NCBI GenBank assembly: GCA_038087875.1
Contig: CM075993.1
Coordinates: 10,852,001 to 10,916,000, forward strand
DNA: 64,000 nucleotides
From: Malacoraja senta
Lineage: Eukaryota
Direction of reading: 5' to 3'
The notes below the pieces were generated by a model. That model was given only the letters and a program-made list of their open reading frames with translations, had not been told where the DNA came from and did no database searches. Numbering within the stretch: position 1 is the first letter of the stretch; each line of letters starts with the position of its first letter. This document shows, in pieces, positions 6,701-50,954 of this stretch. Made by a program: the position numbers and the translations under genes.

Positions 6701-6810
6701 TCGTCCAGACGAGGTAAGATGCTGAGCTCAAACCCAGTGTCCACGAGGAAACGAAGCCCAGAATGGCGATCCCTGACGTAGAGGCGATGTTTCTGGACCA
6801 CCGCGATAGC
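3710..6810 (-). pseudogene. pol: Gypsy pol (protease, reverse transcriptase, RNase H, integrase), multiple frameshifts
   Basis: FLVDTG protease motif (ORF 6595-6891); KTAIITPFGLFE / MPFGLKNA / YLDD RT and DAS..AVGGVL, YSAYDRELLA RNase H (5092-5946); HVDLVGPLP, TDRGAQFTS, TTAYHPQANGLVERFHR integrase (4028-4902). Confidence 0.92.
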
Positions 6811-7379
6811 CTCTACTGGTGATCGGCCGAGACATTTCCCGGATACGAGCAGGGATACGCCGCACCCCAGCGTTGGTGGTAATAACACCACTGGTGCTTA
6901 CTGCGAACCATGGCGGTTGACTGCGGCCCAGCGATGTCATCTGTGGGAGGAACAGCCCAGCGAGGCAGCTGCGGCGAAGGCACGGACACCTGGCTGATAT
7001 AACCGCCATCCTGCTGCTTGGCTAGCCACAACTCGTCCGCCCGCTCAGCGAGTTGCAAGGGATCGGTGAAATCAGACCCGGCAAGAAGCAGGCGGATGTC
7101 ATCGGGCATCTGCTCCAGGAAAGCCTGTTGGAATAAAAGGCAAGGCTGGTGGCCGTCCACGAGAGCTAGCATCTCGCTCATCAAGACCGATGGCTTACGA
7201 TCGCCCAGACAGTCCATATGCAGCAGCCGAGCCGCGCGATAGCGGCGACTGAGCCCGAAGGTGTGTAGCAGCAACGCTTTGCGGCCCTCGTATTTACCAA
7301 CAGTGGGCGGATTCTGCAGGAAAGCCTCCTGGCTGAGCGCACCCACCACGTAGAAATAGCGGGTAGCATCCGCGCTGAT

Positions 7380-10300
7380 TCAGTAAACCGCTCACTTTAA
7401 CAATACTAAATTAATTTTAAAATAGTTAAGAGATAAAGAGTGAGTAGGATATGGAATCGAATACATTTGACATATATATAAATTGTAACTGGGTGAAATA
7501 GAACTGAATTGGAAACGGTAATGACCCCATAGATTTTGGGTAATAAATACAGCGGGGCTAACTTTATACCAACTACGCCGGAAGCGTTATGGATGTCGTA
7601 CCCCACAGACGAGTGGGCCACTCACTACGGTGTTGAAATTTTAGACACCGTAAATTTATTTGATTTATATATATTTTTTTAATCACAATATGTCACATCT
7701 GTGTGTTTTTTCTTCAAGGACAATCGCGCAGGAGAACTACCAAGGAAGTCTATAATAGAAATACTCCCAAAATAACCAGAGTCCGGAGGTATGAACGCAC
7801 CACAATAATTAAGGTCATTAAAACTGGTAAAAATGCATGACGACAATCAAAAGAAAATAGGAGGAATCACATTATGTAGTTGGAATATAAGGGGGATTAA
7901 TGAACCTATTAAAAGGGGCAAGATACTAGCTCAGTTGAAATCATACAACACGGACATTGCGTTTCTACAGGAAACACATCTTAAACAGCAAGATCAGACA
8001 AGACTGAGGGCGAACTGGATAGGCCAAACATTTCACTCTTCATTTACCTCCAAATCTAGAGGTACTGCAATTATTATTCGTAAAGGAATTCCATTTAAAT
8101 CAAAGAACACTATTTTAGATAAGGAAGGGAGATATCTTATAGTAGCAGGGGAGATCAATAATATGCCAATTACGCTGGTAAACATATATGCGCCCAACTT
8201 TGATAACCCTCAATTTTTTAATAAAATTCTGAATATAATTGCAGAATCTAATTATCAAAATGTTATAATCGGAGGAGATTTTAATTGTGTTTTAGATCCT
8301 TATTTAGATAAATCGATGCAAAAACAAAAAGGTCAGACGAAATCTAAAACCAGTGAACTCTTACACACATATATGGAAAACACAAATATAACAGATGTAT
8401 GGAGGATTGCAAACCCGACGGGAAGGGATTACTCGTTTTATTCAATGGTGCATAAAACATATTCACGGATAGACTATTTTCTTGTGGATACAAAATTAAT
8501 TCCGCAATCTCTGAATCCTAAATATCATATTAATGCGATCTCAGATCATTCTCCGTTAACTTTTGTTCTAAAACTAGAAGGAATGTCTATGAATAAACCG
8601 TTCTGGAGGTTTAACTCACAAATTTTAAAAGACCCTCAAGGGAGTATCTATCTAAAAAAACAGATGGATCTATTTTTTGAGTTAAATGATACACCAGAGA
8701 TATCCCCCACGTTATTATGGGAATCCTTCAAAGCATTTATAAGAGGAGTCATTATTTCATTTCAAGCTTATCAAAATAAAAAGAATAAGAATGAACAAAG
8801 ACACTTAGAAGATCAAATAAAACAGTTAGATATAGATAATGCTAAAGACCCAACTATGGATAAACATAATAAAATACTACTACTGAAATTTCAGTTAAAT
8901 AAATTACTGTCAGAGAAAGTTATAACATTATTTCAAATCACAAAACAAGAACACTTCGAATTCGGGGACAAACCCCACAAACTTCTAGCACGACAACTTA
9001 AAAAACGGGAAAAAGAGAATGCAATATTAAAGATTAAATCAGATAGAGGGGAAGTATTAACACTACCCAAGGATATTAATAAAAGATTTGCTCAATTTTA
9101 CCAGAATCTATACACATCTAAAACGTCAATAGACAATAATAAAATCTCAGAATTTTTAGATAATTGTAATCTACCACAATTAGAACGCAGGGAACAAGAG
9201 GAACTGGGAGCACAAATTACTTCTAAGGAGATAGAAGACACAATAAAAACACTAAAAAATGGAAAAACACCAGGACCAGACGGATTCAGTAATGAATTTT
9301 ATAAATCTTTTTATGATATAGTTACTCCACGATTACAAAAAATGTATACATATGCTTATAAAGAGCAAACCCTACCTGAAACACTAGCAGAATCAACGAT
9401 CATATTAATACTTAAAAAAGATAAAAATATAGAAGAACCAGGATCATATAGAGCTATTGCTTTGTTAAATACGGATCAGAAAATAATAGCAAAAACATTA
9501 GCCAATAGATTAAGCAAGTATGTTAGTAGACTAATACATGAGGATCAAACAGGATTTATACCTAAGAGACACTCATTTAATAATTTGAGACGTTTGCTTA
9601 ACATAATGCATTCACATAAATCTTATGACCAAGAGTTAGCTATCATCTCACTGGACGCAGAAAAAGCGTTTGATCAAGTAGAATGGGACTATATGATCAA
9701 AGTATTGCAAAAATTCCAATTGGGAGAAAACTTTATTGCATGGATAAAACTACTATATAACAAACCTACGGCTAGAATACTAACTAATAATATATTATCT
9801 TCAAAATTCGAATTATCTAGGGGCAACAGACAAGGATGTTCACTATCACCGCTGTTATTTGCTTTGGTAATTGAACCCCTTGCTGAAAAAATAAGAACAC
9901 ACTCGAATATTCACGGTTATAACACAAAATATTCAAACAACAAACTATCCCTATATGCTGATGATGTACTACTGTACATCACAAAACCACAAATTAGTAT
10001 ACCAAATATATTAAACTTAATTGAGGACTTTGGATCCTTTTCAGGATATAGAATAAATTGGAACAAAAGTGAAATTATGTCGATTAAACCAAAAGACTCA
10101 ACACATCTCAGGAAATTCCCTTTTAAAATAGCTATGGAAAAATTCAAATATTTAGGAATTGAGATTACTAGAAATTACCATGATATGTTTAAAGCTAATT
10201 ATAATCCCCTACTTAAGAAATTAAATAATTTGATTAAATTTTGGAAAACACTTCCGATGTCCTTAATAGGTAGGATAAATGCTATAAAAATGATTTTCTT

Positions 10301-12023
10301 ACCACAAATCCTTTACCTATTTCAATCAATACCTATATATCTCCCAAAAAAGTTTTTCAAAAAACTGGACTCAGACATTACAAATTTTATATGGGATTAC
10401 AAATCCCACAGAATACAAAGAACACACCTTAACAAACGAAAAGAGTTGGGGGGTCTAGCGCTCCCTAACTTTATGTATTATAACTGGGCAGTAAATATTA
10501 AAAATATGATTCACCTGCTGGACAATTCTGCCCAGCAGGTGGACTGGATTATAATGGAAAAAGGGGATTGCTCCCCGAATAATATAGGAGCGATTATTCT
10601 CTCTCCAATAAATTTGAATAATAAAAATTATAATAAAAATCCAATTATATATAGCACTATTAGAACATGGAAGGAAATAAAACAGAATCTAAATTAAGAA
10701 ACCTATCTCTCTTAATACCAATAGTCAATAACCCATCGTTTAAACCTTCAATCATAGATAAATCATTTATACAATGGGAAAGAATGGGAATCAAAACGCT
10801 CGAAGATCTGTATGAATTAGAAAAATTACTATCATTCCAACAACTACAACTGAAATATAATTTGAAAAATAATCAATATTTTAAATATCTACAAATCTGT
10901 GACTATTTGAAAACACACACAAAAGATTATTATAATATGCCTTCCGACTTACTAGATGAAGCAATGAAGACAAAGGCGGAATCAGTTATTTAATATCATA
11001 CTTATATAATATCATCTTAAACATAGAAATACCCACAACAGATGGGAATTAGAAGAGATTGGGAACAAGATCTAGGTATAAAAATTTCAAAAGAGAGTTG
11101 GGATAATCATTTATTACAGGTGCATAAATGCTCGATCAACGTACGACATACGCTTATCCAATTTAAAACATTACATAGATTATATTATTCAAAAACCAAA
11201 CTAAATAAAATCTTTCCTAACGTCTCACCAATCTGTGATAAATGTATATGTCAAGAAGCTACCATAGCACATTCTTTTGTTTTTTGTACAAAAATCCAAA
11301 AATTCTGGTTTGAAATATTTGATATTTTTTCAAAATTAATCAAAATAAAACTGGTACCAAAACCAGAATGGATTATTTTTGGAATATCGGAAGGTATTCC
11401 TGAATTAAACGTGTATCAGAAGAATTTACTCAATTATGGGCTAATAATGGGAAAAAAGCTTATACTTAAATTCTGGAAAAATGCGCCCACACCAACAATA
11501 AAAATGTGGACATCAAATATGTTGGAAACATTACATCTGGAAGAGATGAGATTCCTCCTAGTAGGCAAAGTAGACCAATTTCAAAAGACGTGGTCTACGT
11601 TTTTGGACCTATTACAAGCATGAGGTGCAATAGTAATTTAGAAAAACAAATAAATAAATAAAAGGTATCTGGACCTGGTAATGGGAGGTAAAACAAAAAC
11701 AGACTTGGTTGGTAGTTCCTTCTCTATGAAGTATGTTATAAGAGTTATAATAGAGCGATTGTTCCTTCTTTCTTTCTCTTTCTTTTCTAGGGTCTATTTT
11801 CTAACTTTACTTCCTTCTCTAACTTCTTTTCTAAGGGGCTTTCTTTTCCCAACACTCTTTTGCACTTCACAACCTTTGCGCACTTTCTTCACTTTTCTTA
11901 CTTCTTTCTTTTTCTTTCTTAAAGTTTAAAAAGTGAAGCGGTACAAAAAATGTATTAATATATACGTGTTGTACATTACTGTAATCTACCGTACTTCTAT
12001 TAAAAAAATTATTTTTAAAAAAA
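7380..12023 (+). mobile_element. L1 LINE, 5'-truncated (no ORF1), nested in Gypsy gag
   Basis: 15-bp TSD agcatccgcgctgat (7365-7379, 12024-12038); A-rich tail ~12002-12023; AT-rich composition contrasting with GC-rich Gypsy. Confidence 0.92.
7833..11623 (+). pseudogene. L1 ORF2p (APE endonuclease, RT, C-terminal Cys-rich domain), three small frameshifts
   Basis: SWNIRG, FLQETHL, GGDFN, SRIDYFL, SDHSP (endonuclease); LDAEKAFD, RQGCSLSP, LYADD (RT); CDKC...HSFVFC. Open 954 aa then frame breaks near 10690, 10988, 11045. Confidence 0.92.
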
Positions 12024-32930: not shown

Positions 32931-33672
32931 ACCACCAGGGGGCGCAGCACAATGGCAGCCTCACCAACGGTCTGTCTGTTTTTTCGTCTTTTTTGTTATT
33001 TTTAGTGTGTTTTAAAAGTTTGTGTTAATGTTCTCTGGTTTGTTTTATGTGGGGGACGGGGTTGGGGGAAACCTTTCTTCATCTCTTACCTTGCCAGAGA
33101 TGCGATTGTTTTCCGGATCGTATCTCCGGTTGCTCTGCGGTCTAACATCATGGAGCCGGAGGCCTTGCTCGGGTCTGACTTTAAGCCCCACCGTGGGGAC
33201 GTGGACTTGCCATCTGAGCCGATTCCTTGCCTGGGATCGACGCTCCCAGGATTCCACCATCGAGGAGCTCGTAGTGTCGGGTAGAGACCGATGTCGGGAA
33301 GCTCCAAACGACACAGGTTCTGCCAGCCCCGACCCGGGGTTAGATCGCCCGGCGCGGGGGAGCTAAGATTCCCAACGATGCGGGAACTTGATCGCTCCGA
33401 ACGTGGAGGGCCCAAATGCAGCCGGATACGAGAGCCAAGATCGTCCCATCAACGGAAGGCTCGAGGCCCCCCAAGGATACCAAAGAGGGAAGAGATTAAA
33501 CTTTTTTTCGCCTTCCATCACAGTGAGGAATGTGGAGGAGTCACTGTGGTGGATGTTCATGTTAAAATGTATTTTGTGTGTTTTGTTGCTTTTTAATGGT
33601 ATGACTGTATGGCAAATCAAATTCCTCGTATGTTGCAAACCATACTGGGCTAATAAAGTATGATTATGATTC
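32931..33672 (+). mobile_element. GC-rich non-autonomous retroposon with CTCF-like 5' motif
   Basis: Head ccaccagggggcgcagcacaatggcagcctc; family block gccttccatcacagtgaggaatgtgg; tail ggctaataaag(tatgat)n. Confidence 0.6.
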
Positions 33673-35681: not shown

Positions 35682-37298
35682 CAGTGGCTTGCAAAAGTAT
35701 TCATACCCCTTGAACTTTTCCACATTTTGTCACATTACAACCACAAACGTAAATGTATTTTATTGGGATTATATGTGATAGAATAACACAAAGTGGTGCA
35801 TAATTGTGAAGTGGAAGGAAAATGATACATGGTGTTCAAATTTTTTTACAAATAAAAAACTGAAAAGTGTGGCGTGCAAAAGTATTCAGCCCCCCTGAGT
35901 CAATACTTTGTAGAACCACCTTTCGCTGCAATTACAGCTGCAAATCTTTTGGGGTATGTCTCTACCAGCTTTGCACATCTAGAGACTGACATTTATGCCC
36001 ATTTTTCTTTGCAAAATAGCTCAAGCTCAGTCAGATTGGATGGAGAGCGTCTGTGAACAGCAATTTTCAAGTCTTGCCAGAGATTCTCAATTGGATTTAG
36101 GTCTGGACTTTGACTGGGCCATTCTAACACATGAATATGCTTTGATCTAAACCATTCCATTGTAGCTCTGGCTGTATGTTTGGGGTCATTGTCCTGCTGG
36201 AAGGTGAACCTCCGCCCTAGTCTCAAGTCTTTTGCAGACTCTAACAGGTTTTCTTCCAAGATTGCCCTGTATTTGGCTCCATCCATCTTCCCATCAACTC
36301 TGACCAGCTTCCCTGTCCCTGCTGAAGAAAAGCATCCCCACAGCATGATGCTGCCACCACCATGTTTCACAGTGGGGATGGTGTGTTCAGGGTGATGTGC
36401 AGTGTTAGTTTTCCGCCACACATAGCATTTTGCATTTAGGCCAAAAACTTCAATTTTGGTCTCATCTAACCAGAGCACCTTCCTCCACATGTTTCCTGTG
36501 TCCCCCACATGGCTTGTGGCAAACTGCAAACGGGACTTCTTATGGCTTTTTTTCAACAATGACTTTCTTCTTGCCACTCTTCCATAAAGGGCCGATTTGT
36601 GGAGTGCACGACTAATAGTTGTCCTGTGGACAGATTCTCCCACCTGAGCTGTGGATCTCTGCAGCTCCTCCAGAGTTACCATGGGCCTCTTGGCTGCTTC
36701 TCTGATCAATGCTCTCCTTGCCCGGCCTGTCAGTTTAGGTGGACGGCCATGTCTTGGTAGGTTTGCAGTTGTGCCATACTCTTTCCATTTTCGGATGATG
36801 GATTGAACAGTGCTCCGTGAGATGTTCAAAGCTTGGGATATTTTTTTATAACCTAACCCTGCTTTAAACTTCTCCACAACTTTATCCCTGACCTGTCTGG
36901 TGTGTTCCTTGGGCTTCATGATGCTGTTTGTTCACTAATGTTCTCTAACAAACCTCTGAGGCCTTCACAGAACAGCTGTATTTATACTGAGATTAGATTA
37001 CACACAACTGGACTCTATTTACTAATTAGGTGACTTCTGAAGGCAATTGGTTGCACTGGATTTTATTTAGGGGTATCAGAGTAAAGGGGGCTGAATACTT
37101 TTGCACGCGACACTTTTCAGTTTTTTATTTGTAAAAAAATTTGAAAACCATGTATCATTTTCCTTCCACTTCACAATTATGCGCCACTTTGTGTTGGTCT
37201 ATCACATAAAATCCCAATAAAATACATTTACGTTTGTGGTTGTAACGTGACAAAATGTGGAAAAGTTCAAGGGGTATGAATACTTTTGCAAGCCACTG
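35682..37298 (-). mobile_element. Tc1/mariner transposon, IR/DR type, 1617 bp
   Basis: About 214-bp TIRs starting CAGTGGCTTGCAAAAGTATTCATACCCC, each with inner DR gcaaaagtattcagccccc; TA TSD (35680-35681, 37299-37300). Confidence 0.95.
35900..36919 (-). pseudogene. Tc1 DD34E transposase (339 codons) with a single premature stop at 35993-35995
   Basis: HTH region, GRPPK, WLDETK, QQDNDPKH, SPDLNPIE (34 residues between D and E). After the TAA the frame continues MSVSRCAKLVETYPKRFAAVIAAKGGSTKY*. Confidence 0.92.
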
Positions 37299-37581
37299 TA
37301 TGTAGTGCATTTCCAGTTGTGGATTAAGACGCAACTCTGGTCACCATTTCACCTCTTACCATCTTCTTCAGCCCATCTCCCACAGTTTTAACTGCCCTAG
37401 TGCCAAACCAGGGTCAGATACCCTGGTCAGTTGATCAGATAAAGGGCAAATTAAATAGAATCGAGACAAAATGTGAGATACTGTACTGTCGAAATGAGCC
37501 AAGGCAAGCGGCAAAACATTATATAGGGATGTTACAAAATGTTGAGTTGTTAAAACTCAAGCCTGCAATTTATCCCATCAG

Positions 37582-38318
37582 AATCAGAATCAGATTTTAT
37601 TCGCTAAGTATGTTTCGCAACATACGAGGAATTTCATTGGCCAGGTCAGTCATACAATTAAAAGCAACAGATCACTTCAAAAACACATTTTAACATGAAC
37701 ATCCACCACAGTGACTCCTATACATTCCTCACTGTGATGGAAGGCGAAATAAAGTTCAAGTCCTTCCCTTAGTTCTTCCTTGGTCGTGGGCCTCGAGCCT
37801 CCATTGACGGGACGATCTTAACTCCCGTAGCTGGCGGCGTTCGGGCCCTCCGCGTCGAGGCGATCAGCTCCCGCATCGGGGGGATGTCAGCTTCCCCGCG
37901 CCCGGCGATCGAACCTCGCGTCGGAGCTGGTCGAACCTTCCGCGACGTTGGAGCTTCCCGACTAGCCTCTCCCGTTACTGCGAGCTCTTAATGGTAAAGT
38001 CCACAGTGGCCGAGGTGGGAGCGATCCCAGGCAAGGGATCAGCTCCGATGTGAAGTCTGCACCCCCGCGATGGGGCTCAAAGTCAGTCCAAGTAGGCCTC
38101 CAGCTCCGTCGATGGAAAACCGCAGAGCCCGGAAATGTGATCGGAAAATTAATCACATCTCCGGCAAGGTAAGATACCCCCGATACCCTCCCCCATCCCC
38201 CACATAAAACAAATCGAAGAACATTAAAACAAACTTTTAACACTAAAAAATAACAAAAAGAATGAAAAAACAAACAGACTGCCGGCAGGGCAGCCATCGT
38301 CCCGGCGCCCCTGGTGGT
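37582..38318 (-). mobile_element. GC-rich non-autonomous retroposon nested in the hAT terminal region
   Basis: Minus head ccaccaggggcgcc; (tctgat)n tail; interrupts tatcccatcaga/taaagcat of the hAT end. Confidence 0.65.
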
Positions 38319-38777
38319 CAAGATAAAGCATAAAAAGAACTTTAATCTGATACCTAATTCACTTTCATATCTTCAGTATTAAAAAAGTTATGGCCATTTT
38401 CATACTCGGAAATTAGCATCTTGTTCCCTATTGCTTTTTCCATTAACTTAACACAAAAGCTGTGATCGAGGACAGTCAAAAGCCCATAATTTTCTTAAAA
38501 ATTAAGAGAACTGAATGAAATTTTCTGTTATTATAGATTAAATAATTCTGAAACAAATATGATACATCTTACTTGGATGACCTGAAATTAAAGTATATAA
38601 TTAGTTAGTTACCTAATCAAGTAGCTAATTACATAATTAACCGTTGTGACGGAAATAGTAATAAACACCCAGACTGCCTTGAAAGTTAAAAAATATTCTC
38701 AAGATCAAAACTTTAATATTATTGTATTATATGCGTAACAGACAGGTAAAGAAATTACAATTTCTAGCAAAAGATTG

Positions 38778-39440
38778 TGGCCCGAGAATTGGGAGCTATT
38801 TCTGAGTTACAGTCAGCAGAGATGATCCCAGCAACAAAGGATTTGACTGCAGGTTTTGATGCAACCACCCAAGAAGAGACCCATATTAACAGTGTACACT
38901 TCACCACCACAAATGAATGTCTTTCTGCAGCAGTCGATGAATTGGCTGGTGGGACTGCTGTCGAGTATGCGCAACATATTTGCAATACTGTTGACAATTT
39001 GTGTGAAACTTACACTTATTTCAATGAGCAAGCAGACTTCCAAGACACCAGGCAAAAGATGATAGACAGCATTACAAATACACCGAGTGACAGGTATGCC
39101 GCTAATCATGCTGCTATTAGGATTGTGAACAGTGAGTGGGGTAAATCTTTGAATGAGCTCTACTGCCACTTGCATCCTCTTGACTCCATCGCAACGTCAG
39201 TTCGCTCAGCCCACAAAAAGCACAAAGAATCCAGAGGCAAAGTCTTTGGGAAGGACTGTCTAGCAGGAAATGTCATACTGCAGATGAACAAACTTCAGTA
39301 CAAGAATGGAAAAGGGGACCCAAAAGGATTTGTTGCATTTTTGGATGAAAGGAACATTCCCCGAGGTGTCCTCCCTCGGTACCATGGCAACAGATTACAT
39401 ATTAGTGGCAAGCTCATAGAACATTATGATGGCTTTGTTA
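38778..39440 (+). pseudogene. Inverted segment encoding hAT-type transposase catalytic core
   Basis: ARELGAIS...GFDATT...SDRYAAN...CHLHPL (first D, second D, CxxH-like motif); opposite strand to the rest of the transposase. Confidence 0.75.
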
Positions 39441-41550
39441 CCATAGGTTCAACTGCACTGCGTTGAGGAACACTATCCAGATCACGTCCACTCCGCTTGT
39501 GCAACTGGCTCATCAGGATTGGAATGTTTGCTGCGGGACTTTTGTTTACAATACACAGTCAATCACATGCATCCTTGTTGTTGAGGAGTAAGTCTTCTGG
39601 TCCACCTTTGACTTGACCTTACTGGCAGCCTCCAGAGTTTCGATTCTTTCTTTGAGGACACGATTGTCAAATTCGAGGCGTCTCACATCCTCTTCCCTGT
39701 CCTTTAGTTTTTCCTGAGCTTTTCTGTGCTGGTTTCAGAATGGCAGGCAGTGACTAGTGGGGTACCGCAAGGCTAGGTGCTGGGACCGCAGCTATTTACA
39801 ATATTCATCAATGGTTTGGATGAAGGGATTCAAAGTAACATTAGTAAATTTGCAGATGACACAAAGCTGGGTGGCAGTGTGAACTGTGAGGAGGATGCTA
39901 TGAGAATGCAGGGTGACTTGGACAGGTTGGGGGAGTGGGCAGATGCATGGCAGATGAAGTTTAATGTGGATAAATGTGAGGTTATCTACTTTGGTATCAA
40001 AAACAGGAAGGCAGATTACTATCTAAATGGCGTCAAGTAGGGAAAAGGGGAAGTACAGCGGAATCTGGGGGTCCTTGTTCATCAGTCTATGAAAGTAAGC
40101 ATGCAGGTACAGCAGGCAGTGAAGAAAGCGAATGGCATGTGGGCCTTTACAACAAGAGTCGAGTATAGGAGCAAAGAGGTCCTTCTGCAGTTGTACAGGG
40201 CCCTAGTGAGACCACACCTGGAGTATTATGTGCAGTTTTGGTCCCCTAATTTGAGGAAGGACATTCTTGCTATTGAGGGAGTGCAGCGTAGGTTTACAAG
40301 GTTAATTCCCGGGATGGCGGGACTGTCATATGCTGAGAGAATGGAGCGGCTGGGCTTGTACACTCTGGAATTTAGAAGGATGAGAGGGGATCTTATTGAG
40401 ACAAATAAGATTGTTAAGGGTTTGGACACGCTAGAGGCAGGAAACATGTTCCCGATGTTGGGGGAGTCCAGAACCAGGGGCCACAGTTTAAGAATAAGGG
40501 GTAAGCCATTTAGAACAGAGACGAGGAAACACTTTTTCTCACAGAGTTGTGAGTCTGTGGAATTCTCTGCCTCAGAGGGCGGTGGAGGCCGGTTCTCTGG
40601 ATACTTTCAAGAGAGAGCTAGATAGGGCTCTTAAAGATTGCGGAGTCATTGAAACAGTTTTCCTCTTTTTCTTATTGCCACTAAACTTGATCAATTGTCT
40701 GATTGCTTTTTTAAATTTCAAAATCTCTACCTTGGTTTCAGCAATCTTGCGTGTCAAACGTAAGTTGGTTTTGAGTTCCTGAATCTTTCTGTCCTTCAAA
40801 TCTATTTGGTTTTGATTTCTCTTTAAGGCTTGATTAACTACACGTTTGGATGTTTTCAACTGTGCCCTAAGTTCACGGATCTTTGGGCCATACTTTAGTG
40901 CAAGACCGACCTTGGATGTAGACAGATAGTTTTGTCTTTTCTTTATTTTGTTTCCTTGGTGAAAGACTTAGAAGTTCTCTGGTACATCTTGTTGAAACAC
41001 TAGATGTCGATGGCATTGGTTCAGGAGAGGCAGCAGCTGTCGTTGGCGTTGCTAGATTCAGTGGAGGATGCAGACTATGACTGCCATCGCCCATGTCCTC
41101 AGTGTCTTGAAATATGGGCACTTGGCTTTTGGCTGATGCCAAGGATTCAGGATCATGAGCACCAGGCGGTGAAATGTCATCTAAAGAAATGTGTTGCCTG
41201 CCTTCTGGAAGTTTAAAAGTTTCATCACACATTTCCGTAAATGTTTCAAGTTCCTTGGGATTGCTGAGTTTTTTTAATTTAAGCAAAGTCCGGTTAACGA
41301 GAGTCCTCACCCTTGAGTTAACAGCAGCAAATGAATAGCCTTCTGCATCCGACAAAGAAAAATGTGAACTCAGCCGTCTCTCAGTTTCAGACAGACTTTT
41401 TCCAAACGAGGTATACAAGTACAAGATGTGTCCATTTTTAAGATCCCTCTTAGACTCGGGCATGATAGAGAAATTCACTTCAAGGTGAGCTTTAGCTATG
41501 CCAGGCTGGGCATTTGGATTGACAATTTTGGATTTCTTCTTCGGAGGCAT
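39441..41550 (-). pseudogene. N-terminal half of the same transposase, interrupted by CR1
   Basis: MPPKKKSK... (ORF 40873-41586), coiled-coil piece (40572-40859), then ...DSVPQRSAVEPM ending at 39441, which joins in sense to ARELG. Confidence 0.65.
39735..40648 (+). mobile_element. CR1 LINE fragment nested in the hAT transposase gene
   Basis: SGVPQG.VLGPQLFTIFIN...FADDTKLGG RT motifs; truncated at both ends. Confidence 0.88.
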
Positions 41551-42924
41551 CTGAAAAATGTAACGAAAAAACCCACTGAACAGCATTAAGTAGAAACAAG
41601 TTTTTATTTGCAGTTTTAGAAAAAAAAGGTAGAATTAATTTTGTTGAACAAAATGCCTAACACAAGTTAAACGTTAAAACAAAAAGTAAATACCCAACAA
41701 AAAAATTCATATTCACCAGTCATCAAATCAATTAAATTCGTCTAAATTCAATCTAGATCTAAACATCTATGCCATTCTTAAGTAAAGGCTAAAAATAAAT
41801 TTTTAAATAGCCAAAGTATCCAAATAACAAACTGATCCCATTCACACAAGAATTCACAACATAACATGATTTTTAAATCTCACTTTGTCATGAATTTCTA
41901 TGCCAACTCGAAGGAATTTAATGTTTAATTCCCATAAATTTTCCTGTTGGATTATAACATTGCAGCAGGCAAGGGGTGTTTTACACAGACATGTGTTCAA
42001 AATCCACAAACATCCACTCTCAAGATAATCAAAATCATTATTTTTTGCACAATCATGTCATAAGAACATCTAAATTATCTATATTTTGTGTAATTGTCTA
42101 TCCATGATTAATATTTTCATACTAAATATCTGACTAAAAACTATGTACTGTGGAAGTTTTTAGTCAGATATTTAGTATGAAAATATGGATGTTTAGTGTT
42201 TTATGGGTCATTCGTAACTGTCACTGTATGTCATGTTGTCACTTGTGGGCGGAGCACCAAGGCAAATTCCTTGTATGTGAATACTTGGCTAATAAACTTA
42301 TTCATTCATTCATTCATTCATTCATTCATCATGGATAGACAATAACACGAAATATAGATAATTTAGATGTTCTTATGACATTGTGCAGAAAATAATGAAT
42401 TTGATTATCTTGAGAGTGGATGTTTGTGGATTATGATGCAGAGATCGGATTGTGGTCGCCGCCTTGATTTTGCTCACACTCACAGTCGGCAGGCAGGACT
42501 CGCTGATATCGGGGCCTAAATAACATATTTCGCATCATCAGGTTAAAATGAAATTACACCAAAAACTAGATAAGATGTTAAATAAACATCCTACAGTACA
42601 TACCTTTGTTTTGTCCTGAACTTGCGATCCGTGATTTTGAAGGCGTTGAAGTTGGGCCCGACTTTCATCCAGCGATTCAATAGTCAGCAACGTTTTGAAA
42701 AAAATCGTGAACGAAATTTCCTCATAAACTTATCGTACGACGAAATCCCTCCCTGACAACCAATAAAAACATGCACTTTACTCACCCCCCCCCCCCCCCC
42801 CACCACAGCCTCTTGAGTCGCACGCACAGGCAGTTGGCAGATCTGGAGCGCCACTGATAGCAGGAATTTGTTACAACGCTACATTATATTGTCATGGATT
42901 ATGGTGGACCAAAGGAACTGCCTC

Positions 42925-43217
42925 TTTAGACTTCAGAGACACAGTGCGGAAAAAGGCCATCAGGCACACAGAGACCACGCTGACCAGCAATCATCCTGTA
43001 CACTAACACTATCCTACACACTGGGACAATTTACAATTTACAGAAGCCAATTAACCTGTCTTTGGAGTGTGGGAGAAAACCACAGCACCCGGTAAAACCC
43101 CACGCAATCACACGGAGAACATACAAACTTCGCACACACAGCACCTTTAGTCAAGATCAAACCCGTGTCTCTGGTGCCGAAAGGTAGCAACTCTACCACT
43201 GCGTCACTGTGCCGCCC
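42925..43217 (-). mobile_element. HE1-like V-SINE
   Basis: Reverse-complement SINE consensus. Confidence 0.7.
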
Positions 43218-43837
43218 ATTTCTATGCTGAATGTTGAGTGGTATGTAGGAATGTAGAGTGGTATGTAGGAATACAGAAGGCAGTGGAGGCCAATTCACTG
43301 GATGTTTTCAAGAGAGTTAGATTTCGCTCTTCGGGCTAATGGAATCAAGGGATATGGGGAAAAAACAGGAACGGGGTACTGATTTTAGATGATCAGCCAT
43401 GATCATATTGAATGGTGGTGCTGGCTCGAAGGTCCGAATGGCCGACACCTGCACCTATTCTTCACTGTTTCTAGAAGTGACTTTGGAATGTAGATCCAGA
43501 GATCTCTAAAGGCAAGACAAGTAGGCAAGTTGGTTAAAAATGCACACAGGATGCTGGGGATCTTTGTCACCATGTTACAGGTAAAATATGATTGCTCAGC
43601 AAGCCCTTGATACTCTTCATTTTGAGAAATCGAGCAACCTCTATCTTGAATTAAGTGAAGCATTCTGCATAAAGAATTTCAGAGACACCGCCCCAAGCAA
43701 GAGGAATTTCTTCTCAGTCCCCAGTTGCCCATATACTGAAAGTGTCATCCTACGTGAACCCAGCTTGTTCAACACTGTATTTTATAAATTTCACTCTGAC
43801 CCCCTCTCAATTTGCTAACCTCAAGAGTATACAAGGT

Positions 43838-45455
43838 TAGATAGATAGATAGATAGAATGCCATTTATTGTCATTTACACATACAACGTTCAAACGAGAT
43901 TACGTTCCTGCAGTCATAACAGCAAAAAAACAACAACACACAATTGACACAATTCCACACAAACATCCATCACAGTGAATCTCCAAACACCTCCTCACTG
44001 TGATGGAAGGCAAAAGTCTTATCTCTTCCCTGTTCTCTGTTCTTTATTCTTCTTCTCTCGCAGTCAAGCAGTCAAACTGCTGCATCGAGCTGATCAAGGC
44101 TTTTGATATTAGAGCCCCCGGCGGGTGATGGTAAGTCCCGCGGCCGTTTAAGCAGCGCCGGGCGATGTAAGGCCCCGCTCCGGGTCGATTTAAATCCCTC
44201 GATTCGGGCTGGAGAAGTTGCCGTTGCGGGAGCCCCGAAAAGCGGTCTCCCACCAGGGACCCGCAAGCTCCCAATGTTACCGTCCACAGGGCCTGCAGCC
44301 GGAGCCTCTGAAGCTCCGAAGTCGGGTCGCAGCCGCGCGCCACCACAGCGCTCCGCGATGGTGAGTCATAGAAACATAGAAAATAGGTACAGGAGTAGGC
44401 CATTCGGCCCTTCGAGCCTGCACCGCCATTCAATATGATCATGGCTGATCATCCAACTCAGTATCCTGTACCTGCCTTATCTCCATACCCCCTGATCCCT
44501 TTAGCCACAAGGGCCACATCTAACTCCCTCTTAAATACAGCCAATGAACTGGCCTCAACTACTTTATGTGGCAGAGAATTCCACAGATTCACCACTCTGT
44601 GTGAAAAACATTTTTCTCATCTCAGTCCTAAAAGACTTCCCCCTTATGCTTAAACTGTGACCCCTTGTTCTGGACTTCCCCAACATCGGGAACAATCTTC
44701 CTGCATCTAGCCTGTCCAACCCTTTAAGAATTTTGTAAGTTTCTATAAGATCCCCCCTCAATCTTCTAAATTCTAGCGAGTACAAGCTGAGTCTATCCAG
44801 TCTTTCTTCATATGAAAGTCCTGCCATCCCAGGAATCAGTCTGGTGAACCTTCTCTGTACTCCCTCTATGGCAAGAATGTCTTTCCTCAGATTAGGAGAC
44901 CAAAACTGTACGCAATACTCCAGGTGGGTCTCACCAAGGCCCTGTACAACTGCAGTAGAACCTCCCTGCTCCTATACTCAAATCCTTTTGCTATGAATGC
45001 TAACATACCATTCGCTTTCTTCACTGCCTGCTGCACCTGCATGCCTACTTTCAATGACTGATGTACCAGGACACCCAGGTCTCGTTGCATCTCCCCTTTT
45101 CCTAATCGGCCACCATTCAGATAATAGTCTACTTTCCTGTTCTTGCCACCAAAGTGGATAACCTCACATTTATCCACATTGTATCCGCAGGCTCTGCGAC
45201 TGGAGTCCCAGGTCGATTCCGGTTGGAGGCCGCCGGCTCCACGATGTTAGGCCCCAACGACAACGGAGACTCGAGAGGGAAAAGGTCAAGTCCCCCGTGA
45301 AGAGAAGAGATTAAAAAGTCCCACCCCCCCCCCCACACATATACACAGCTAAATATAAAATAAAACTAAAACCAAAAACATACACATAACAGGACAAAAA
45401 AGAAGAAAAGACAGACAGACTGCAGTGGCCGCTGCCGCGAGGCGCCGCCATCTTG
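43838..45455 (-). mobile_element. GC-rich retroposon interrupted by a CR1 fragment (44367-45180)
   Basis: Minus head caagatggcggcg (~45443-45455); family block at ~43965-44011; CR1 ORFs 44564-44827 and 44887-45177. Confidence 0.6.
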
Positions 45456-45844
45456 GTCAACCTTTCCTCATATGGCGAAACTGTCATCTATGAGCAAAGG
45501 CTTGTTAATCATGAGAGGAATAGATAGGGTGAATGTACAGCCTTTTACCCAGAGTAGAGGAATCAAGAACCAGAGGACATAGGTTTAAGGTGAAGGGGTG
45601 AGATTTCATAGGCACTTGAGGGACAACTCTTTTACACAAAGGGTGTTAGGGATATGGAATGAGTTGCTGGGGGAGGTGGTTGAGGCAGGTGCTATAACAA
45701 CATTTATAAAAGATAAAAACGAGGAACTGCAGATGCTGGTTTACCAAGAAAAGGCAAAAAAGGTGGGAAGAAATCTGGACGTGTGCATTTTCACACTTGA
45801 TTGGAAAGGGGAGAAGAAGGAGTAGCCAAGGTGCGATTCATCTT

Positions 45845-46092
45845 TGATTATGCTGTTGGCCTTGCCCAGGCAGCACATGGTGCAAATGAGTCAATGGAAG
45901 AGAGGTTGATTTGTGTGATGGTCTGGACTGCGTCCACAATACTCTGCAATTTCTGGCGGTCTTGGATGGAGCTGTTCCCAAACCATGCTGTGACGCATCC
46001 CAATAAAACGCTTTCCTTGACGCATCTGTAGAAGTTGGTGAGAGTTGTTGGGGACATGCCGAATTTCTTAAGTCTTCTACGGAAGTAGAGGA
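45845..46092 (-). mobile_element. Rex1/Babar-type LINE C-terminal fragment
   Basis: LYFRRRLKKFGMSPTTLTNFYRCVKESVL.GCVTAWFGN...QKLQSIV. Confidence 0.75.
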
Positions 46093-47134
46093 GTTGGTGT
46101 GGAAGACTTTGGCCCAAACGCGGGCAGTTGGTAGTAGTGTAGATGGGGTAGTTTCCTCCCCCTGGCTTCACCATCCACAATTCTTCAATATAGAATCAAA
46201 GAACTACAGATGCTGGTTTATGCCAAAGATAGACACAAAGTGGGTCGGGCAGCATAGAAACATAGAAAATAGGTGCAGGAGGAAGCCGTTCGGCCCTTCA
46301 AGCCAGCACCGCCATTCATTGTGATCATGGCTGATCGTCCCCAATCAATAACCCGTGCCTGCCTCCTCCCCATATCCCATGATTCCACTAGTCCCTAGAG
46401 CTCTATCTAACTCTCTCTTAAATCCATCCAGTGACTTGGCCTCCACTGCCCTCTGTGGCAGGGAATTCCACAAATTTAAGTTTAAGGCCACAGTTTAAGA
46501 ATAAGGAGTAAGCCATTTAGAACGGAGACGAGGGAAGGCTTTTTCTCAAAGAGAGTTGTGAGTCTGTTGAATTCTCTGCCTCAGAGGGCGGTGGAGGCAG
46601 GTTCTCTGGATGCTTTCAAGCGAGAGCTAGATAGGGCTCTTAAACATAGCGGAGTCAGGGGATATGGGGAGAAGGCAGGAACGGGGTACTGATTGGGGAT
46701 GATCAGCCATGATCATATTGAATGGCGGTGCTGGCTCGAAGGGCCGAGTGGCATACTCCTGCACCTATTGTGTATTCACAACTCTCCGGGTGAAAACGTT
46801 TTTTCTCAACTCAGTCTTAAATGGCTTCCACTTTATTCTAAGACTGTGGCCCCATGTTCTGGACTCGCCCAACATGGGGAACATTTTTCCTGCATCTAGC
46901 TTCTCCAGTCCTTTTATAATTTTATATTTCTATAAGATCCCCCCTCATCCTTCTAAACTCCAGTGAATACAAGCCTAGTCTTTTCAATCTTTCCTCATAT
47001 GACAGTCCCGCCATCCCAGGGATCAATCTTGTGAATCCATTTTCCCAACTTGACACCATTTAGATAATAATCTGTCTTACCTGTTCTTGCCACCAAAGTG
47101 GATAACCTCACATTTATCCACATTAAACTTTATC

Positions 47135-49506
47135 TAGTGATGTTACAAAACTTACCTTCAGCGGCGCTGCAGTTCTGCTACTGGCCGTGTGCGCGACTTT
47201 GGCGCCTTTGTGGGTGGGGGCGGGATTAAAATGCCGTTTTCTCCTGCTTTTCGGAGGCGGACTTCCTCGGGCTATTAGCTGCTGAAGAACAATCGATCGG
47301 ACTTCCGCTCCCGATTTATTTAATCGCGAGACAATTTAATAATTACATTAAAATAAAAAGCGACTTCTAACGCCCTCAACGCCTACAGCATGACGGATCG
47401 CATGAACGGGACAAAACAAAATGTAAGTCGTTTATTTTCACATATAAACTTGTTTCTTGGGATGGCTTTAATCAAATTTTACGATGCAAAAATGTAATTT
47501 GGGCCCCATACGAACCGGCAGTGTTTTTCCTGCCGATATGGAGTTCAAATTCACCGTAAATGCAACGTTCCAATCGATCGCGTTCCAGAAAAACCCACTC
47601 GCAAGATGATTTAAATGCACTTTTTTTTGGACAATCGTGTCATGAGCATCTATATTTTGTGTTATTGTTTACCCATAGTCAATATTTTTATACTAAATAT
47701 CAGTTTTATTCCCATGTATTGTGCAAAAAAATAATAATTTTAATTATATTCAGTGGATGTTTCTAGATTAATTTATGGGAATTAAACATTAAATTCCTTC
47801 CATCTGGCATATAAATTCATGACAGTGAGATTTAAAAATCATGTTCTATTGTGAATTCTTGTGTGAATGGGATTAGTTTGTTATTTGGATACTTAGGCTA
47901 TTTAAAACAAAAATCCTTTTCTTAAGAAATGGAATCTACAGGACATTGTTAATGGGAAAGTAGTGGGCAGAAAGGCATGTGTGGTTTGAAGAGCAAAAAC
48001 CTGTAGTTTACAATGCTACAATTGAAAAGTTGAGGAAAAACAAGGTGTACAGAGTTGCTTATTGGTTACAATCTGAGGAGTATGATGATGCTACTGATTA
48101 TGATATGCCAATGTACCAGCTAGCAACTGATCTTCTCCATAAAGACTTGGTCTATTGCTAGAAATTGTAATTTATTTACCTATCTGTTACGGATTTACAG
48201 CATATAATACAATAATATTAAAGTTCTGATCTTAGGAATATCACATTTTTGAATTTTCAAGGCAGTCTGGGTGTTTATTACTATTTCCGTCACAACGGTC
48301 AATTTTGTAATTAACTACAATTAGGTAATTAACTAATTATATGCTTTAATTTCAGGTCATCCAAGTAAGATGTTTTATATTTGTTTCAGAATGCTTCAAT
48401 CTATAATAACTGAAAATTTCATTCAGTTCTCTTGATTTTTTAGGAAGTTATGGGCTTTTGACTGTCCTCGATCACAGCTTTTGTGTTAAGTCAATGGAAA
48501 AGCAATAGTAGGTATGTTACAAAACTTACCTTCAGCGGCGCTGCAGTTCCGTCACTGCCCGTGTGTGCGACTTTGGCGCCTTTGAGAGGGGGGCGGGTTT
48601 AAAATGCGATTTTTCAGCAGCCTATTCAAATCGATCTATCAGGCTGTTTAGTTGCTAAAGAAAAATCGCTTCGACTGCCGTTTTATTAAGTTTATTAAGA
48701 TTTGCGCTGGATAATTAAATTGTTGGAGTAAAATTAAAATCATCTTCATATGCCGTCAACGCCGACAACGGGACGGATTTCACGTAGGGGACAAGGCAAG
48801 GTACGCCGTTTATTTTTTCATATAAACTTGCTTCTTAGGATGCCCTTAATCAAAATTTCACGTTGCAAAAATGTGATTATGTAAATATACAAACCGGCAG
48901 TATTTTTCCTGCCGATATGGGATTTAAATTCACTGCAACCGCAACGTTCCAAACCAGCGCGTTCCACAAAAACCCACTCGTAAGATGATCCATTTGGCCT
49001 ATAAATTCATGACAATGAGATTAAAAAATAATATTATATTGTGAATTCTTGTGTGAATGTTATTTGGACACTTAGGCTTTTAAAACATGTTAACCTTTTT
49101 CTTAAGAAATGGATAGATGTTTAGATCTAGTAATTGAATTTTGTAATTAGCTACAATTGGGTAACTAACTAATTATATGCTTTAATTTCAGGTCATCCAA
49201 GTAAGATTGTTTCATATTTGTTTCAGAATGCTTCAATCTATAATAACTGAAAATTTCATTCAGTTCTCTTAATTTTTAAGAAAGTTATGGGCTTTTGACT
49301 GTCCTTGATCACAGCTTTTGTGTTGTCAATGGAAAAGCAATAGGGAACAAGATGCTAATATCCGAGTATGAAAAAGGCCATAACTATTTTAATACTGAAG
49401 ATATGAAAGTGAATTAGGTGTCAAATTAAACTTCTTTTTATGCTTTATCTGATGGGATAAATTGCAGACTTGATTTTTTAAATTTCAAAAGTTTGTAACA
49501 TTGCTA
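47135..49506 (+). mobile_element. Compound of two non-autonomous hATw-like elements (47135-48508 and 48509-49506) inside a CR1
   Basis: 5' ends tagtgatgttacaaaa (47135) and taggtatgttacaaaa (48509); a single 3' end tttgtaacattgcta (49506); outer TSD ctttatc/cttcatc (47128-47134, 49507-49513). Confidence 0.85.
47933..48161 (+). pseudogene. C-terminal remnant of the hATw-like transposase
   Basis: ORF ...WFEEQKPVVYNATIEK...DLVYC*. Its stop and downstream sequence match (reverse complement) 38700-38775 of the large copy. Confidence 0.6.
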
Positions 49507-49567
49507 CTTCATCTGCCATGCTCTGCCCACTCACCCAACCTGTCCAAGTCACCCTGCATTCTCATAG

Positions 49568-50603
49568 TAGGTATGTTACAATACTTACCTTCAGCGGCGC
49601 TGCAATTCTGCCACTGGCCGTGTGCGCGATTTTGGCGCCTTTGAGGAGGGGGGGGGGGCGGGGTTAAAACGCGGGTTTCTCCTACCTTGTCTTGTATTAT
49701 ATTTCGTTGGAGTGTCAGCTTTTGCTGAAAAATCTTTCCGACGGGCGTTTTGTGTATTTTTTATTTTTATTCAATCGACAAGTTCAGCGCTGGAGCAATT
49801 TTAAAATCAGCTTCGAAAGCCGTCAACGCCGACAACGGGGACGGATTTCACGCACGGGACAGGTAAACGAAAGCAGTTTATTTTAATGTATAAAAGTGCT
49901 TCTTAAGAGGCCTTTAATTCACATTTTTTAATGCGAAACGGTGATTCTTTTCCCCGAACGGCAGAATTTTTCATGCCGATACGGGGTTAAATTCACCGCA
50001 AATCAACGTTCCAAATGATCGCGTTCCAGAAAATCCCACTCGCAAGATGATTTAAATGCCCATTAATTTACAGGTATTAAACATTAAATTTCTTCCATTT
50101 GGCCTGTAAATCCATGACAATGAGATTTTAAAATTATGTTATATTGTGAATTCTTGCGTGAATGTTATTTGGACACTTAGGGTATTTAAAAATGTTAATC
50201 TATTCTTAAGAAATTGATAGATGTTTAGATCTAGTAATTGAATTTTGTAATTAGCTACAATTAGGTAACTAACTAATTATATGCTTTAATTTCAGGTCAT
50301 CCAAGTAAGATTGTTTCATATTTGTTTCAGAATGCTTCAATCTATAATAACTGAAAATTTCTTTCAGTTCTCTTAATTTTTAAGAAAGTTATGGGCTTTT
50401 GACTGTCCTCGATCACAGCTTTTGTGTTAAGTCAATGGAAAAGCAATAGGGAACAAGATGCTAATATCCGAGTATGAAAAAGGCCATAACTTTTTTAATA
50501 CTGAAGATATGAAAGTGAATTAGGTGTTAGGTTTTTATGCTTTATCTGATGGGATGAATTACAGACTTGATTTTTAAAATCTCAAAATTTTGTAACATTG
50601 CTA
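49568..50603 (+). mobile_element. Non-autonomous hATw-like element, 1036 bp
   Basis: taggtatgttacaata ... ttttgtaacattgcta; perfect 7-bp TSD ctcatag (49561-49567, 50604-50610) within CR1. Confidence 0.9.
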
Positions 50604-50754
50604 CTCATAGCATCCTCCTCGCAGTTCACATAGTTTTGTGTCATCTGCAAATTTGCGGATGTCAAGGGTTATGGGGAGAAGGCAGGGAAATGGGATTAAA
50701 CGGGAGAGATAGATGAACGGCAGAGATTCATGTTGAACGGCAGAGGAGCCATCG

Positions 50755-50954
50755 NNNNNNNNNNNNNNNNNNNNNNNNNNNNNNNNNNNNNNNNNNNNNN
50801 NNNNNNNNNNNNNNNNNNNNNNNNNNNNNNNNNNNNNNNNNNNNNNNNNNNNNNNNNNNNNNNNNNNNNNNNNNNNNNNNNNNNNNNNNNNNNNNNNNNN
50901 NNNNNNNNNNNNNNNNNNNNNNNNNNNNNNNNNNNNNNNNNNNNNNNNNNNNNN
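50755..50954. other. Assembly gap (200 N)
   Basis: Run of N. Confidence 1.

What the first reader, a model, noticed from the sequence alone, without database searches (positions are those of the whole stretch)
37524..50603. Family of TAG...CTA DNA transposons making 7-bp TSDs (hATw-like), with transposase partly reconstructable from local copies
Seen: four elements share ends TAGnnATGTTACAAAA ... TTTGTAACATTGCTA, and three independent insertions give 7-bp TSDs (cattata, ctttatc/cttcatc, ctcatag). The large copy supplies the N-terminus and the D..D/CxxH core; copy 47135 supplies the C-terminal ~70 aa. Known: most hAT elements make 8-bp TSDs, and 7-bp TSDs define the uncommon hATw lineage. Inferred: a poorly described hATw-type family was repeatedly active in this genome.
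Basis: partly seen in the sequence, partly recalled or inferred. Interest (0 to 1): 0.72.

Follow-up and report, generated by a model that had tools for sequence, protein, structure and literature searches.

The report
Dead hAT-type transposons with Spindlin-like tail
These are four broken copies of a very abundant cut-and-paste jumping gene that duplicates 7 bases where it lands, and whose enzyme ends in a small domain shaped like Spindlin, a reader of methyl marks on histones, so the element may choose landing sites by reading chromatin.

Summary
Real. Four decayed copies (A 37524-42881 on the minus strand; B, C, D 47135-50603) share ~15-bp TAG...CTA inverted ends, and three insertions have 7-bp target duplications. 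The coding pieces are colinear with 960-aa animal transposases, but residues ~612-878, with the third catalytic Glu, are absent, and the D..D/CxxH core of A is inverted. An intact relative folds best like the hAT transposase Hermes (Z 17.0; P element 8.1) and has no Pfam match. Filing it as Repbase hATw is plausible but untestable here; 7-bp duplications also occur in the unrelated fungal hAT7 group. Histone reading is inferred, not shown. I found no such DNA-transposase fusion in print. This scan noted the same fusion before on four other stretches of DNA. Contigs of four coded organisms show the family is very high-copy.

The parts
37524..42881 (-). Copy A: decayed, once-autonomous element (5358 bp with later insertions); 5' end at 42881, 3' end at 37524
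37517..37523 (+). TSD of copy A (cattata)
   Evidence: sequence
42882..42888 (+). TSD of copy A (cattata)
   Evidence: sequence
37524..37538 (-). 3' terminal inverted repeat of A
   Evidence: 12 of 15 complementary to the other end
42867..42881 (-). 5' terminal inverted repeat of A (diverged)
37583..38320 (.). Later insertion of an unrelated repeat with a short microsatellite tail into A's 3' subterminal region
   Evidence: 76.6% identical to 32931-33672; junctions
38321..38777 (-). 3' non-coding region of A plus the last three codons and stop of the transposase
   Evidence: 88-92% identical to B, C, D; junction
38778..39440 (+). Inverted piece of the transposase gene: catalytic D..D, CxxH (CHLH) and RYxGNRLH; equals P0003 residues ~385-611
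   Evidence: (74% identity, E 5e-111)
39441..39734 (-). Transposase residues ~286-385 (end of coiled coil to start of core), one frameshift
39735..40648 (+). Later insertion in the coding region: CR1-type 3' fragment 39826-40648 plus ~90 unassigned bases
40647..41550 (-). Transposase residues 1-285 (ATG at 41550), one frameshift near 40940
41551..42603 (-). Predicted 5' UTR intron (GT at 42603; acceptor tttttcag directly before the ATG), holding a long palindrome (arms 41997-42112 and 42324-42436) and a SINE-like insert (~42187-42330)
   Evidence: an acceptor-like cag lies 6-8 bases before the ATG in 6 of 7 related loci printed; splicing not shown
47135..48508 (+). Copy B: internal-deletion derivative with 5' end, part of the intron, the C-terminal coding piece and most of the 3' region; no own right end
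47918..48161 (+). Transposase residues ~879-960 = Spindlin-like Tudor domain; one frameshift near 47975; W, Y, Y cage positions and the DY motif intact
   Evidence: 6, 10, 16 and 5 contigs of the four runs carry 5 more bases at 47975
48509..49506 (+). Copy C: 998-bp non-autonomous element abutting B; its right end closes the B+C unit
47128..47134 (+). TSD of B+C (ctttatc)
49507..49513 (+). TSD of B+C (cttcatc)
49568..50603 (+). Copy D: 1036-bp non-autonomous element, same ORF-deletion junction as C
49561..49567 (+). TSD of D (ctcatag)
50604..50610 (+). TSD of D (ctcatag)
47037..50662 (-). CR1-type fragment that is the target of B+C and D (pieces 47037-47134, 49507-49567, 50604-50662; the two sites are 61 bases apart)

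Best explanation
A, B, C and D are dead copies of one divergent hAT-type cut-and-paste transposon family (probably Repbase's hATw group, about 65%). SHOWN: ~15-bp imperfect TAG...CTA inverted ends, 7-bp target duplications, and a single long coding exon for a ~960-aa protein. In relatives this protein has a small helical N-terminal domain, a long coiled coil, an RNase H core with D412/D489/E766 split by a helical insertion that begins with CxxH, a long helix, and a C-terminal Spindlin-like Tudor barrel. INFERRED from Hermes: the enzyme binds both ends, cuts the element out (hairpins left on the flanks) and joins the 3' ends to target DNA with a 7-nt stagger, giving the 7-bp TSD. B, C and D are internal-deletion derivatives moved in trans. 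A died by frameshifts, retroposon insertions and an inversion-plus-deletion that removed residues ~612-957. INFERRED, about 55%: the Tudor barrel binds a methylated lysine or arginine on histone tails and tethers the transpososome to marked nucleosomes, biasing where it inserts, as chromodomains do for some Gypsy integrases.
For: Ends and TSDs. Colinearity with P0003 and nine other relatives. Conservation in 56 aligned relatives: D412 56/56, D489 55/56, C514 and H517 56/56, E766 55/56. Model of P0003, mean pLDDT 84: best match Hermes 8edg, Z 17.0, rmsd 3.9, 336 aligned, next transposase ISCth4 9.8, P element 8.1; Foldseek ranks 1-10 are Hermes, E 7.6e-7 to 1.9e-5; Atlas features point to DUF659/ZBED1/Dimer_Tnp_hAT clusters at 0.77-0.79, a lead only. 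Same end type in relatives: L001 has TTTGTAACATACCTA after the ORF; L011 has a 14/15 TAGGTATGTG TIR pair. Tudor domain: present in 50 of 56 aligned relatives; model pLDDT 95.7; the 16 best Foldseek rows shown are Spindlins (E 0.02-0.09, TMq 0.59-0.67); VIA-align Z 8.0-8.6, rmsd 1.8-3.1, 63-68 residues against Spindlin1 repeat 2 (residues 123-193); hmmsearch puts W21, Y30, Y47 on Spindlin-4 W, W, Y spaced 10 and 19 apart (E 0.08), the spacing of the cage residues W62/W72/Y91 and F141/W151/Y170 (PMC7878818, passages); these three positions are aromatic in 46 of 55 relatives, and 43 of 55 also keep the aromatic of the DY motif.
Against: No Pfam hAT domain in any of 13 proteins scanned, and the profile finds no transposase in the PDB by sequence. 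Foldseek E-values for P element (2.7e-5) are close to those for Hermes. Each Tudor test is weak alone: no Foldseek E<=0.001, hmmsearch E 0.08 behind a chance hit, Atlas 0.80-0.82, no Spin-Ssty Pfam hit in 14 members; non-reader barrels score nearly as well (Tn7 TnsB N-terminal domain Z 7.0, F-plasmid TraI Z 6.9). The fourth cage residue was not mapped. The TSD rests on three insertions, one with a mismatch. The only related locus with both TIRs in full view (L011, 1 of 44) shows no TSD of 4-10 bp. No binding or insertion-bias data.
Confidence: 0.6

Rival explanations
1. Same hAT-type transposon, but the C-terminal barrel is a generic SH3/Tudor-like module used for DNA binding, multimerisation or binding a host protein, not a histone-methyl reader.
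For: Small barrels of transposition proteins match almost as well: TnsB residues 1-57 Z 7.0, TraI Z 6.6-6.9. In the wide search the best Z is only 7.2, within the range common for models without a clear match. Only 16-20% identity to Spindlins.
Against: Spindlins take ranks 1-24, and the Spindlin-type vGxxixHxW start and three cage aromatics are among the best-conserved positions of the domain (H900 49/50, W902 49/50, aromatic 911 50/50, Y928 47/50).
Confidence: 0.27
2. The family is not hAT but a separate lineage of the hAT/P/Mutator-like CxxH group (for example nearer to P elements, which also make 7-8-bp TSDs; that length is recalled).
For: No Pfam hAT domain; ~10% identity to Hermes; P element transposase at Foldseek E 2.7e-5; unusual size, coiled coil and no BED finger visible in the model.
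Against: Hermes Z 17.0 at rmsd 3.9 against P Z 8.1 at rmsd 7.3; Atlas neighbours are hAT-related clusters; TAG-starting ends are shared with the hATm group of hAT (PMC6004678, passages).
Confidence: 0.09
3. The true ends are AG...CT with a 9-bp TSD (hATm- or Mutator-like), the T and A being part of an A-N7-T target preference.
For: For A (acattatat twice) and B+C (actttatct/acttcatct) a 9-bp reading fits as well.
Against: At D the CR1 reference has c where the filled site has T, and t where it has A, so both belong to the element. At C's left junction the family sequence continues with g, not T. Relatives L001, L011 and L017 also end in TAG/CTA.
Confidence: 0.04

Closest known systems
Hermes / hAT superfamily (PDB 8edg, 6dwz, 4d1q, 2bw3)
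   Same: RNase H DDE core split by a large helical insertion that starts with CxxH; short TIRs; fixed-length TSD; non-autonomous deletion derivatives. Best structural match.
   Different: 7-bp rather than 8-bp TSD; ~960 aa; no Pfam hAT domain; no BED finger seen; long coiled coil; C-terminal Spindlin-like Tudor barrel.
Repbase/Dfam hATw group
   Same: Recalled, from no call: divergent hAT group first described from Hydra with 7-bp TSDs. The class hAT-hATw is used for Hydra and amphioxus repeats (PMC13465017, PMC12905397, passages), and 19 of the 36 species-named relatives are from Hydra vulgaris.
   Different: No hATw sequence was available, so identity is untested. A Tudor/Spindlin domain is not mentioned in the passages read.
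hATm group
   Same: Divergent hAT branch whose ends start with TAG (PMC6004678, passages).
   Different: hATm ends are TAGGGTG...CACCCTA with 8- or 9-bp TSDs, and hATm-6 has PF05699; here TAGnnATGTTAC, 7 bp, no PF05699.
Fungal hAT7 (PMC12730594, passages)
   Same: [quoted passage not shown]
   Different: hAT7 clusters with fungal and plant Ac/Tam3-type hATs in rust fungi; this family's named relatives are aquatic animals and lack canonical hAT Pfam domains.
Spindlin1-4 (Spin/Ssty repeats, PF02513)
   Same: Same barrel, best to repeat 2, the H3K4me3 pocket; three cage aromatics in register.
   Different: One repeat instead of three, fused to a transposase; 16-20% identity; below Pfam detection; ligand unknown.
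Reader-bearing transposons: chromodomain Gypsy elements, Tudor-bearing Gypsy-10_Ec32, hAT-Chromo fusions in Ephydatia
   Same: A chromatin-reader domain on the integrating enzyme (PMC12477816 and bioRxiv 10.1101/2021.11.30.470311, passages).
   Different: Those are retrotransposons, or chromodomains; the 2025 paper calls its Gypsy the first reported TE with a Tudor domain. Here it is a Spindlin-type Tudor on a whole lineage of DNA transposases.

Membership tests
hAT superfamily | DDE RNase H core with a large helical insertion (Hermes fold) | tested here: met
   Model of relative P0003: Hermes Z 17.0, rmsd 3.9, 336 aligned; D412/D489/E766 conserved. The window holds only the two Asp.
hAT superfamily | CxxH motif after the second Asp | tested here: met
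   CHLH in the window; C514 and H517 in 56 of 56. The motif as a hAT feature is recalled; it is shared with P and Mutator.
hAT superfamily | Short terminal inverted repeats | tested here: met
   12-13 of 15 complementary in all four end pairs
hAT superfamily | 8-bp TSD (usual; 5-, 6- and 7-bp subgroups are accepted as hAT, PMC12730594) | tested here: not met
   7 bp at 3 of 3 insertions; this excludes canonical 8-bp groups, not the superfamily
hAT superfamily | C-terminal dimerisation domain PF05699 by profile | tested here: inconclusive
   No hit in 13 proteins, but the structural match runs to Hermes residue 609 and Atlas neighbours carry PF05699 at low score
hAT superfamily | Hairpin formation on flanking DNA during excision | not testable with these tools
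   needs biochemistry or excision footprints
hATw (Repbase/Dfam) | Transposase similarity to hATw consensus families | not testable with these tools
   no Repbase/Dfam library; no hATw sequence in the papers or the one supplement set searched
hATw (Repbase/Dfam) | 7-bp TSD (recalled as the hATw feature; not confirmed in any paper read) | tested here: met
   not exclusive, since hAT7 shares it
hATm | TAGGGTG...CACCCTA ends | tested here: not met
   ends are TAGnnATGTTAC
hATm | 8- or 9-bp TSD | tested here: not met
   7 bp at D without ambiguity; A and B+C alone are ambiguous
P element superfamily | P-type core fold and THAP domain | tested here: inconclusive
   P transposase matches at Z 8.1, rmsd 7.3, far below Hermes; no THAP hit
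Spin/Ssty (Spindlin) Tudor repeat | Spindlin-type barrel fold | tested here: met
   Z 8.0-8.6 to Spindlin1 repeat 2, ranks 1-24 all Spindlins
Spin/Ssty (Spindlin) Tudor repeat | PF02513 profile match | tested here: not met
   0 of 14 members; Atlas features rank Spin/Ssty clusters 2nd and 3rd at 0.80-0.81, a lead only
Spin/Ssty (Spindlin) Tudor repeat | Four-residue aromatic cage | tested here: inconclusive
   three positions in register and aromatic in 46 of 55; fourth not mapped, no coordinates available
Spin/Ssty (Spindlin) Tudor repeat | Binds methylated histone peptides | not testable with these tools
   no experiment possible; no histone chain available to the complex tool

The most novel reading that the evidence does not exclude
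A whole, widespread lineage of animal hAT-type DNA transposases, now shown to have flooded a vertebrate-type genome, carries a working Spindlin-type methyl-histone reader that steers integration to marked chromatin; and the Spin/Ssty repeats of Spindlin proteins share ancestry with this mobile domain, possibly taken from such a transposon.
Probability: 0.3. Interest if true: 0.8.

Novelty: new variant of a known kind. Interest (0 to 1): 0.52.

Why it matters
The local copies are dead and the 7-bp TSD alone is a minor, known variation. The Tudor tail matters more. Reader-guided integration is established for chromodomain retrotransposons, and a 2025 paper calls a Gypsy element the first reported TE with a Tudor domain (PMC12477816, passages). 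A conserved Spindlin-like reader on cut-and-paste transposases would give a directly testable case of chromatin-guided insertion by a DNA transposon, a candidate origin for Spindlin repeats, and a small native targeting module for transposon tools. Apparently intact relatives (such as P0003) exist to test it.

Tried and rejected
Whole genome: none held, so no genome-wide TSD count or search for an intact copy. Pfam: no significant family for window pieces or relatives or for the C-terminal members. PDB by sequence with the full profile: only coiled-coil matches. Metagenome loci (44): TIR/TSD scans found one full TIR pair with both flanks (L011, no TSD; perhaps a collapsed consensus contig), one looser pair at a contig edge (L017) and one right end (L001); the other short inverted-repeat pairs were taken as chance. 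Viral contigs: the 16-base end pattern gave 120 stretches, the 80 listed with one match each, taken as chance and not followed; the transposase profile found no relative among 63 candidates. Rfam: nothing. The C-terminal profile found 17 proteins, 13 already known as relatives and 4 new unnamed ones, and no Spindlin. Read laying could not give paired TSDs or test A's inversion: it was laid on B-D only, and the joints skipping the elements come from the many other CR1 copies, so they do not show an empty allele at this locus. The core tree (48 rows, 1 dropped) puts the window with P0003, P0005, P0007 and a sea-urchin protein (95/82), but most deep forks are open, so horizontal transfer is not claimed. 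Paper searches gave no statement of hATw TSD length or ends; others gave no DNA transposase with a Spindlin/Tudor domain. Three papers asked for by recalled id were not held. Supplements of bioRxiv 10.1101/2021.11.30.470311 (its Table 6 lists TE-reader fusions) were not seen and may bear on novelty. Adjacent deletion by C was rejected for the B+C junction, because C's right flank carries B's TSD and continues the CR1 exactly. No complex was predicted.


Full report
1. Observation. The window is repeat-rich animal DNA (45% in self-repeats, no host gene recognised among long ORFs). From the repeat content I take it to be a cartilaginous fish; that is recall and was not tested. The end pattern occurs 7 times against 0.73 expected, and six hits are ends of the four copies. 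Copy A runs 37524-42881 on the minus strand: its 37524 end matches the 3' ends of C and D, and its 42881 end is a diverged 5' end. B (47135-48508), C (48509-49506) and D (49568-50603) lie on the plus strand. The inverted repeats are short and imperfect (12-13 of 15). No further family piece lies elsewhere in the 64 kb.

2. TSD length. A is flanked by cattata twice, B+C by ctttatc/cttcatc, D by ctcatag twice; chance is 8e-5 for an exact and 1.7e-3 for a one-mismatch 7-mer. A and B+C both sit in A-N7-T sites, so alone they also fit 9 bp with AG..CT ends. D settles it: B+C and D are inserted 61 bases apart in one CR1-type fragment, removing 7+7 bases best restores colinearity with the CR1 copy inside A (333 against at most 329), and the terminal T and A of D are not in the target. 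The sample is three insertions. Among 44 related metagenome loci only L011 shows both TIRs with both flanks (TAGGTATGTG, 14 of 15), and it has no TSD of 4-10 bp, so 7 bp is not confirmed outside the window.

3. Coding pieces. The core (P0001) finds 124 proteins at E<=0.001 among 1604 candidates; named ones come from Hydra (19 of 36 species-named rows), molluscs, sea urchin, brachiopod, annelids, priapulid, sea spider, copepod, sponge and a teleost; 657 representatives pass E<=0.001 in the 50% library. Against the best relative P0003 (960 aa), the window gives residues 1-285 (41550-40647, minus), 286-385 (39734-39442, minus), 383-611 (38771-39445, plus, 74% identical) and 879-960 (47918-48158, copy B), with frameshifts. 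In A the core is inverted: one junction has a TGG overlap in the 'EPM/ARELG' stretch, the other joins to the last three codons, so A lost residues ~612-957 in the same event (an assembly error is not excluded). The ATG follows a splice-acceptor-like tttttcag; 6 of 7 related loci printed have such an acceptor just upstream, and all four copies keep a donor-like GT at the same place, which points to a 5' UTR intron (not shown by RNA).

4. Superfamily. Pfam finds nothing. In 56 long relatives (chosen from the 120 listed) D412, D489, CHLH 514-517 and E766 are nearly invariant. The AlphaFold model of P0003 (pLDDT 84) matches Hermes best: Foldseek E 7.6e-7, P element 2.7e-5, ISCth4 1.9e-3; VIA-align Z 17.0 (rmsd 3.9, 336 residues) against 9.8 for ISCth4 and 8.1 for P. 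It therefore works like a hAT. It fails the hATm tests (TAGGGTG ends, 8-9-bp TSD; PMC6004678, passages). hATw cannot be tested here. That hATw has 7-bp TSDs and was described from Hydra is my recall; the papers read only use the class name (PMC12905397, PMC13465017, passages). 7-bp TSDs also mark fungal hAT7 (PMC12730594, passages). I put hATw membership at about 65%.

5. The C-terminal domain. The wide structure search of the whole model also matched residues ~887-960 to Tudor domains. The domain is present in 50 of 56 aligned relatives, with H900, W902, Y/F/W911, Y928, W929, D940, D951 strongly kept, and copy B holds it with these residues intact. Folded alone from a 14-row alignment that includes copy B (first row L001; pLDDT 95.7), it gives Spindlins in the 16 best Foldseek rows shown, none at E<=0.001; RDM15 Tudor Z 7.2 and Spindlin-4 Z 7.0 in the wide search; and Z 8.0-8.6 against Spindlin1 residues 123-193, repeat 2, with ranks 1-24 all Spindlins. 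hmmsearch aligns W21, Y30 and Y47 with Spindlin-4 W, W, Y spaced 10 and 19 apart (E 0.08, second hit), the spacing of cage residues W62/W72/Y91 and F141/W151/Y170 in Spindlin1 (PMC7878818, passages). These three positions are aromatic in 46 of 55 relatives (5 lack the region, 2 are cut short, 2 differ). Against: Pfam Spin-Ssty hits 0 of 14, Atlas scores are only 0.80-0.82, and TnsB and TraI barrels reach Z 6.9-7.0. The fold is well supported; histone reading is an inference (about 55%).

6. History. C and D share one ORF-deletion junction and are 98.6% identical in the 3' block, but only 70% in a 400-bp CpG-rich 5' stretch; A is 92-95% identical to the others in the 3' block and 55-63% in that stretch. 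Subfamilies thus differ mainly in the presumed promoter region, with many transversions, which CpG decay alone does not explain. A CR1-type copy landed in A, while B+C and D landed in a CR1-type copy of the same kind, so the family was active over a span of time. B lacks a right end: either C jumped into B's 3' region and the B-left/C-right unit moved as one, or recombination between the duplicated ends removed B's end in place; I cannot tell these apart. Twenty public runs of 7 coded organisms in 9 studies hold 23-31% of the sampled words; the 4 runs laid gave 55,007-93,201 contig records each on 47000-50700, cover in all 30 bins, most at 90% identity or more (CR1 flanks included, no copy number). 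The family is abundant across related species, so four copies in 13 kb need not mean local hopping.

7. Novelty. A hAT-type family with a 7-bp TSD is a known kind. A Spindlin-like Tudor on a DNA transposase was not found in searches of an open-access library that lacks most subscription papers. A 2025 paper calls a Gypsy element the first reported TE with a Tudor domain (PMC12477816, passages), and a 2022 preprint reports Chromo and PHD fusions, including hAT-Chromo in a sponge (passages; supplements not seen). I reached the Tudor reading, before looking at earlier scan notes; four notes on other DNA (sea urchin, sponge) report the same fusion. They are unchecked and not independent proof, and they mean that this window extends the lineage rather than discovers it. 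Other papers seen: PMC8721813 (first quarter of the text and passages), PMC9004415 and PMC12220107 (passages); none mentions hATw.

8. Verdict. Observation confirmed, interpretation partly supported.

Noticed in passing
window 35682-37298 (-): Near-intact Tc1/mariner element with long inverted repeats and TA flanks, 225 bases from copy A; 312-codon open stretch with HTH_Tnp_Tc3_2, HTH_SB and DDE_3 hits, then one premature stop near the C-terminus.
   Followed up: partly
window 7809-10694 (+): 962-codon open stretch with endonuclease and reverse transcriptase domains, an L1/Tx1-like ORF2.
   Followed up: partly
window ~4340-7380 (-): Broken pieces that look like a Gypsy-type pol (seen only in the ORF listing; label recalled).
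   Followed up: no
window 41997-42436 and 47584-47770: Long palindrome in the predicted 5' intron of A (arms 92% alike) with a weaker form in B; C and D have lost it at slightly different junctions.
   Followed up: partly
window 47208-47610, 48582-48989, 49641-50051, 42415-42806: Presumed promoter region is CpG-rich (observed/expected 1.0-1.5) and only 55-72% alike between copies, whereas the flanking blocks are 86-99% alike: promoter turnover or mosaicism between subfamilies.
   Followed up: partly
P0003 residues ~10-110 (window 41550-41200, -): Confidently modelled helical N-terminal domain with a conserved NGHVL motif and no Pfam match; likely the end-binding domain; not folded or searched alone.
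   Followed up: no
L005:3814-4144 and 11528-11868: Long inverted repeats (87-89% alike) around a related transposase in a metagenome contig, unlike the short TAG ends; perhaps another element or a different end type.
   Followed up: no
window 50755-50954: 200-base assembly gap 150 bases after copy D.
   Followed up: no
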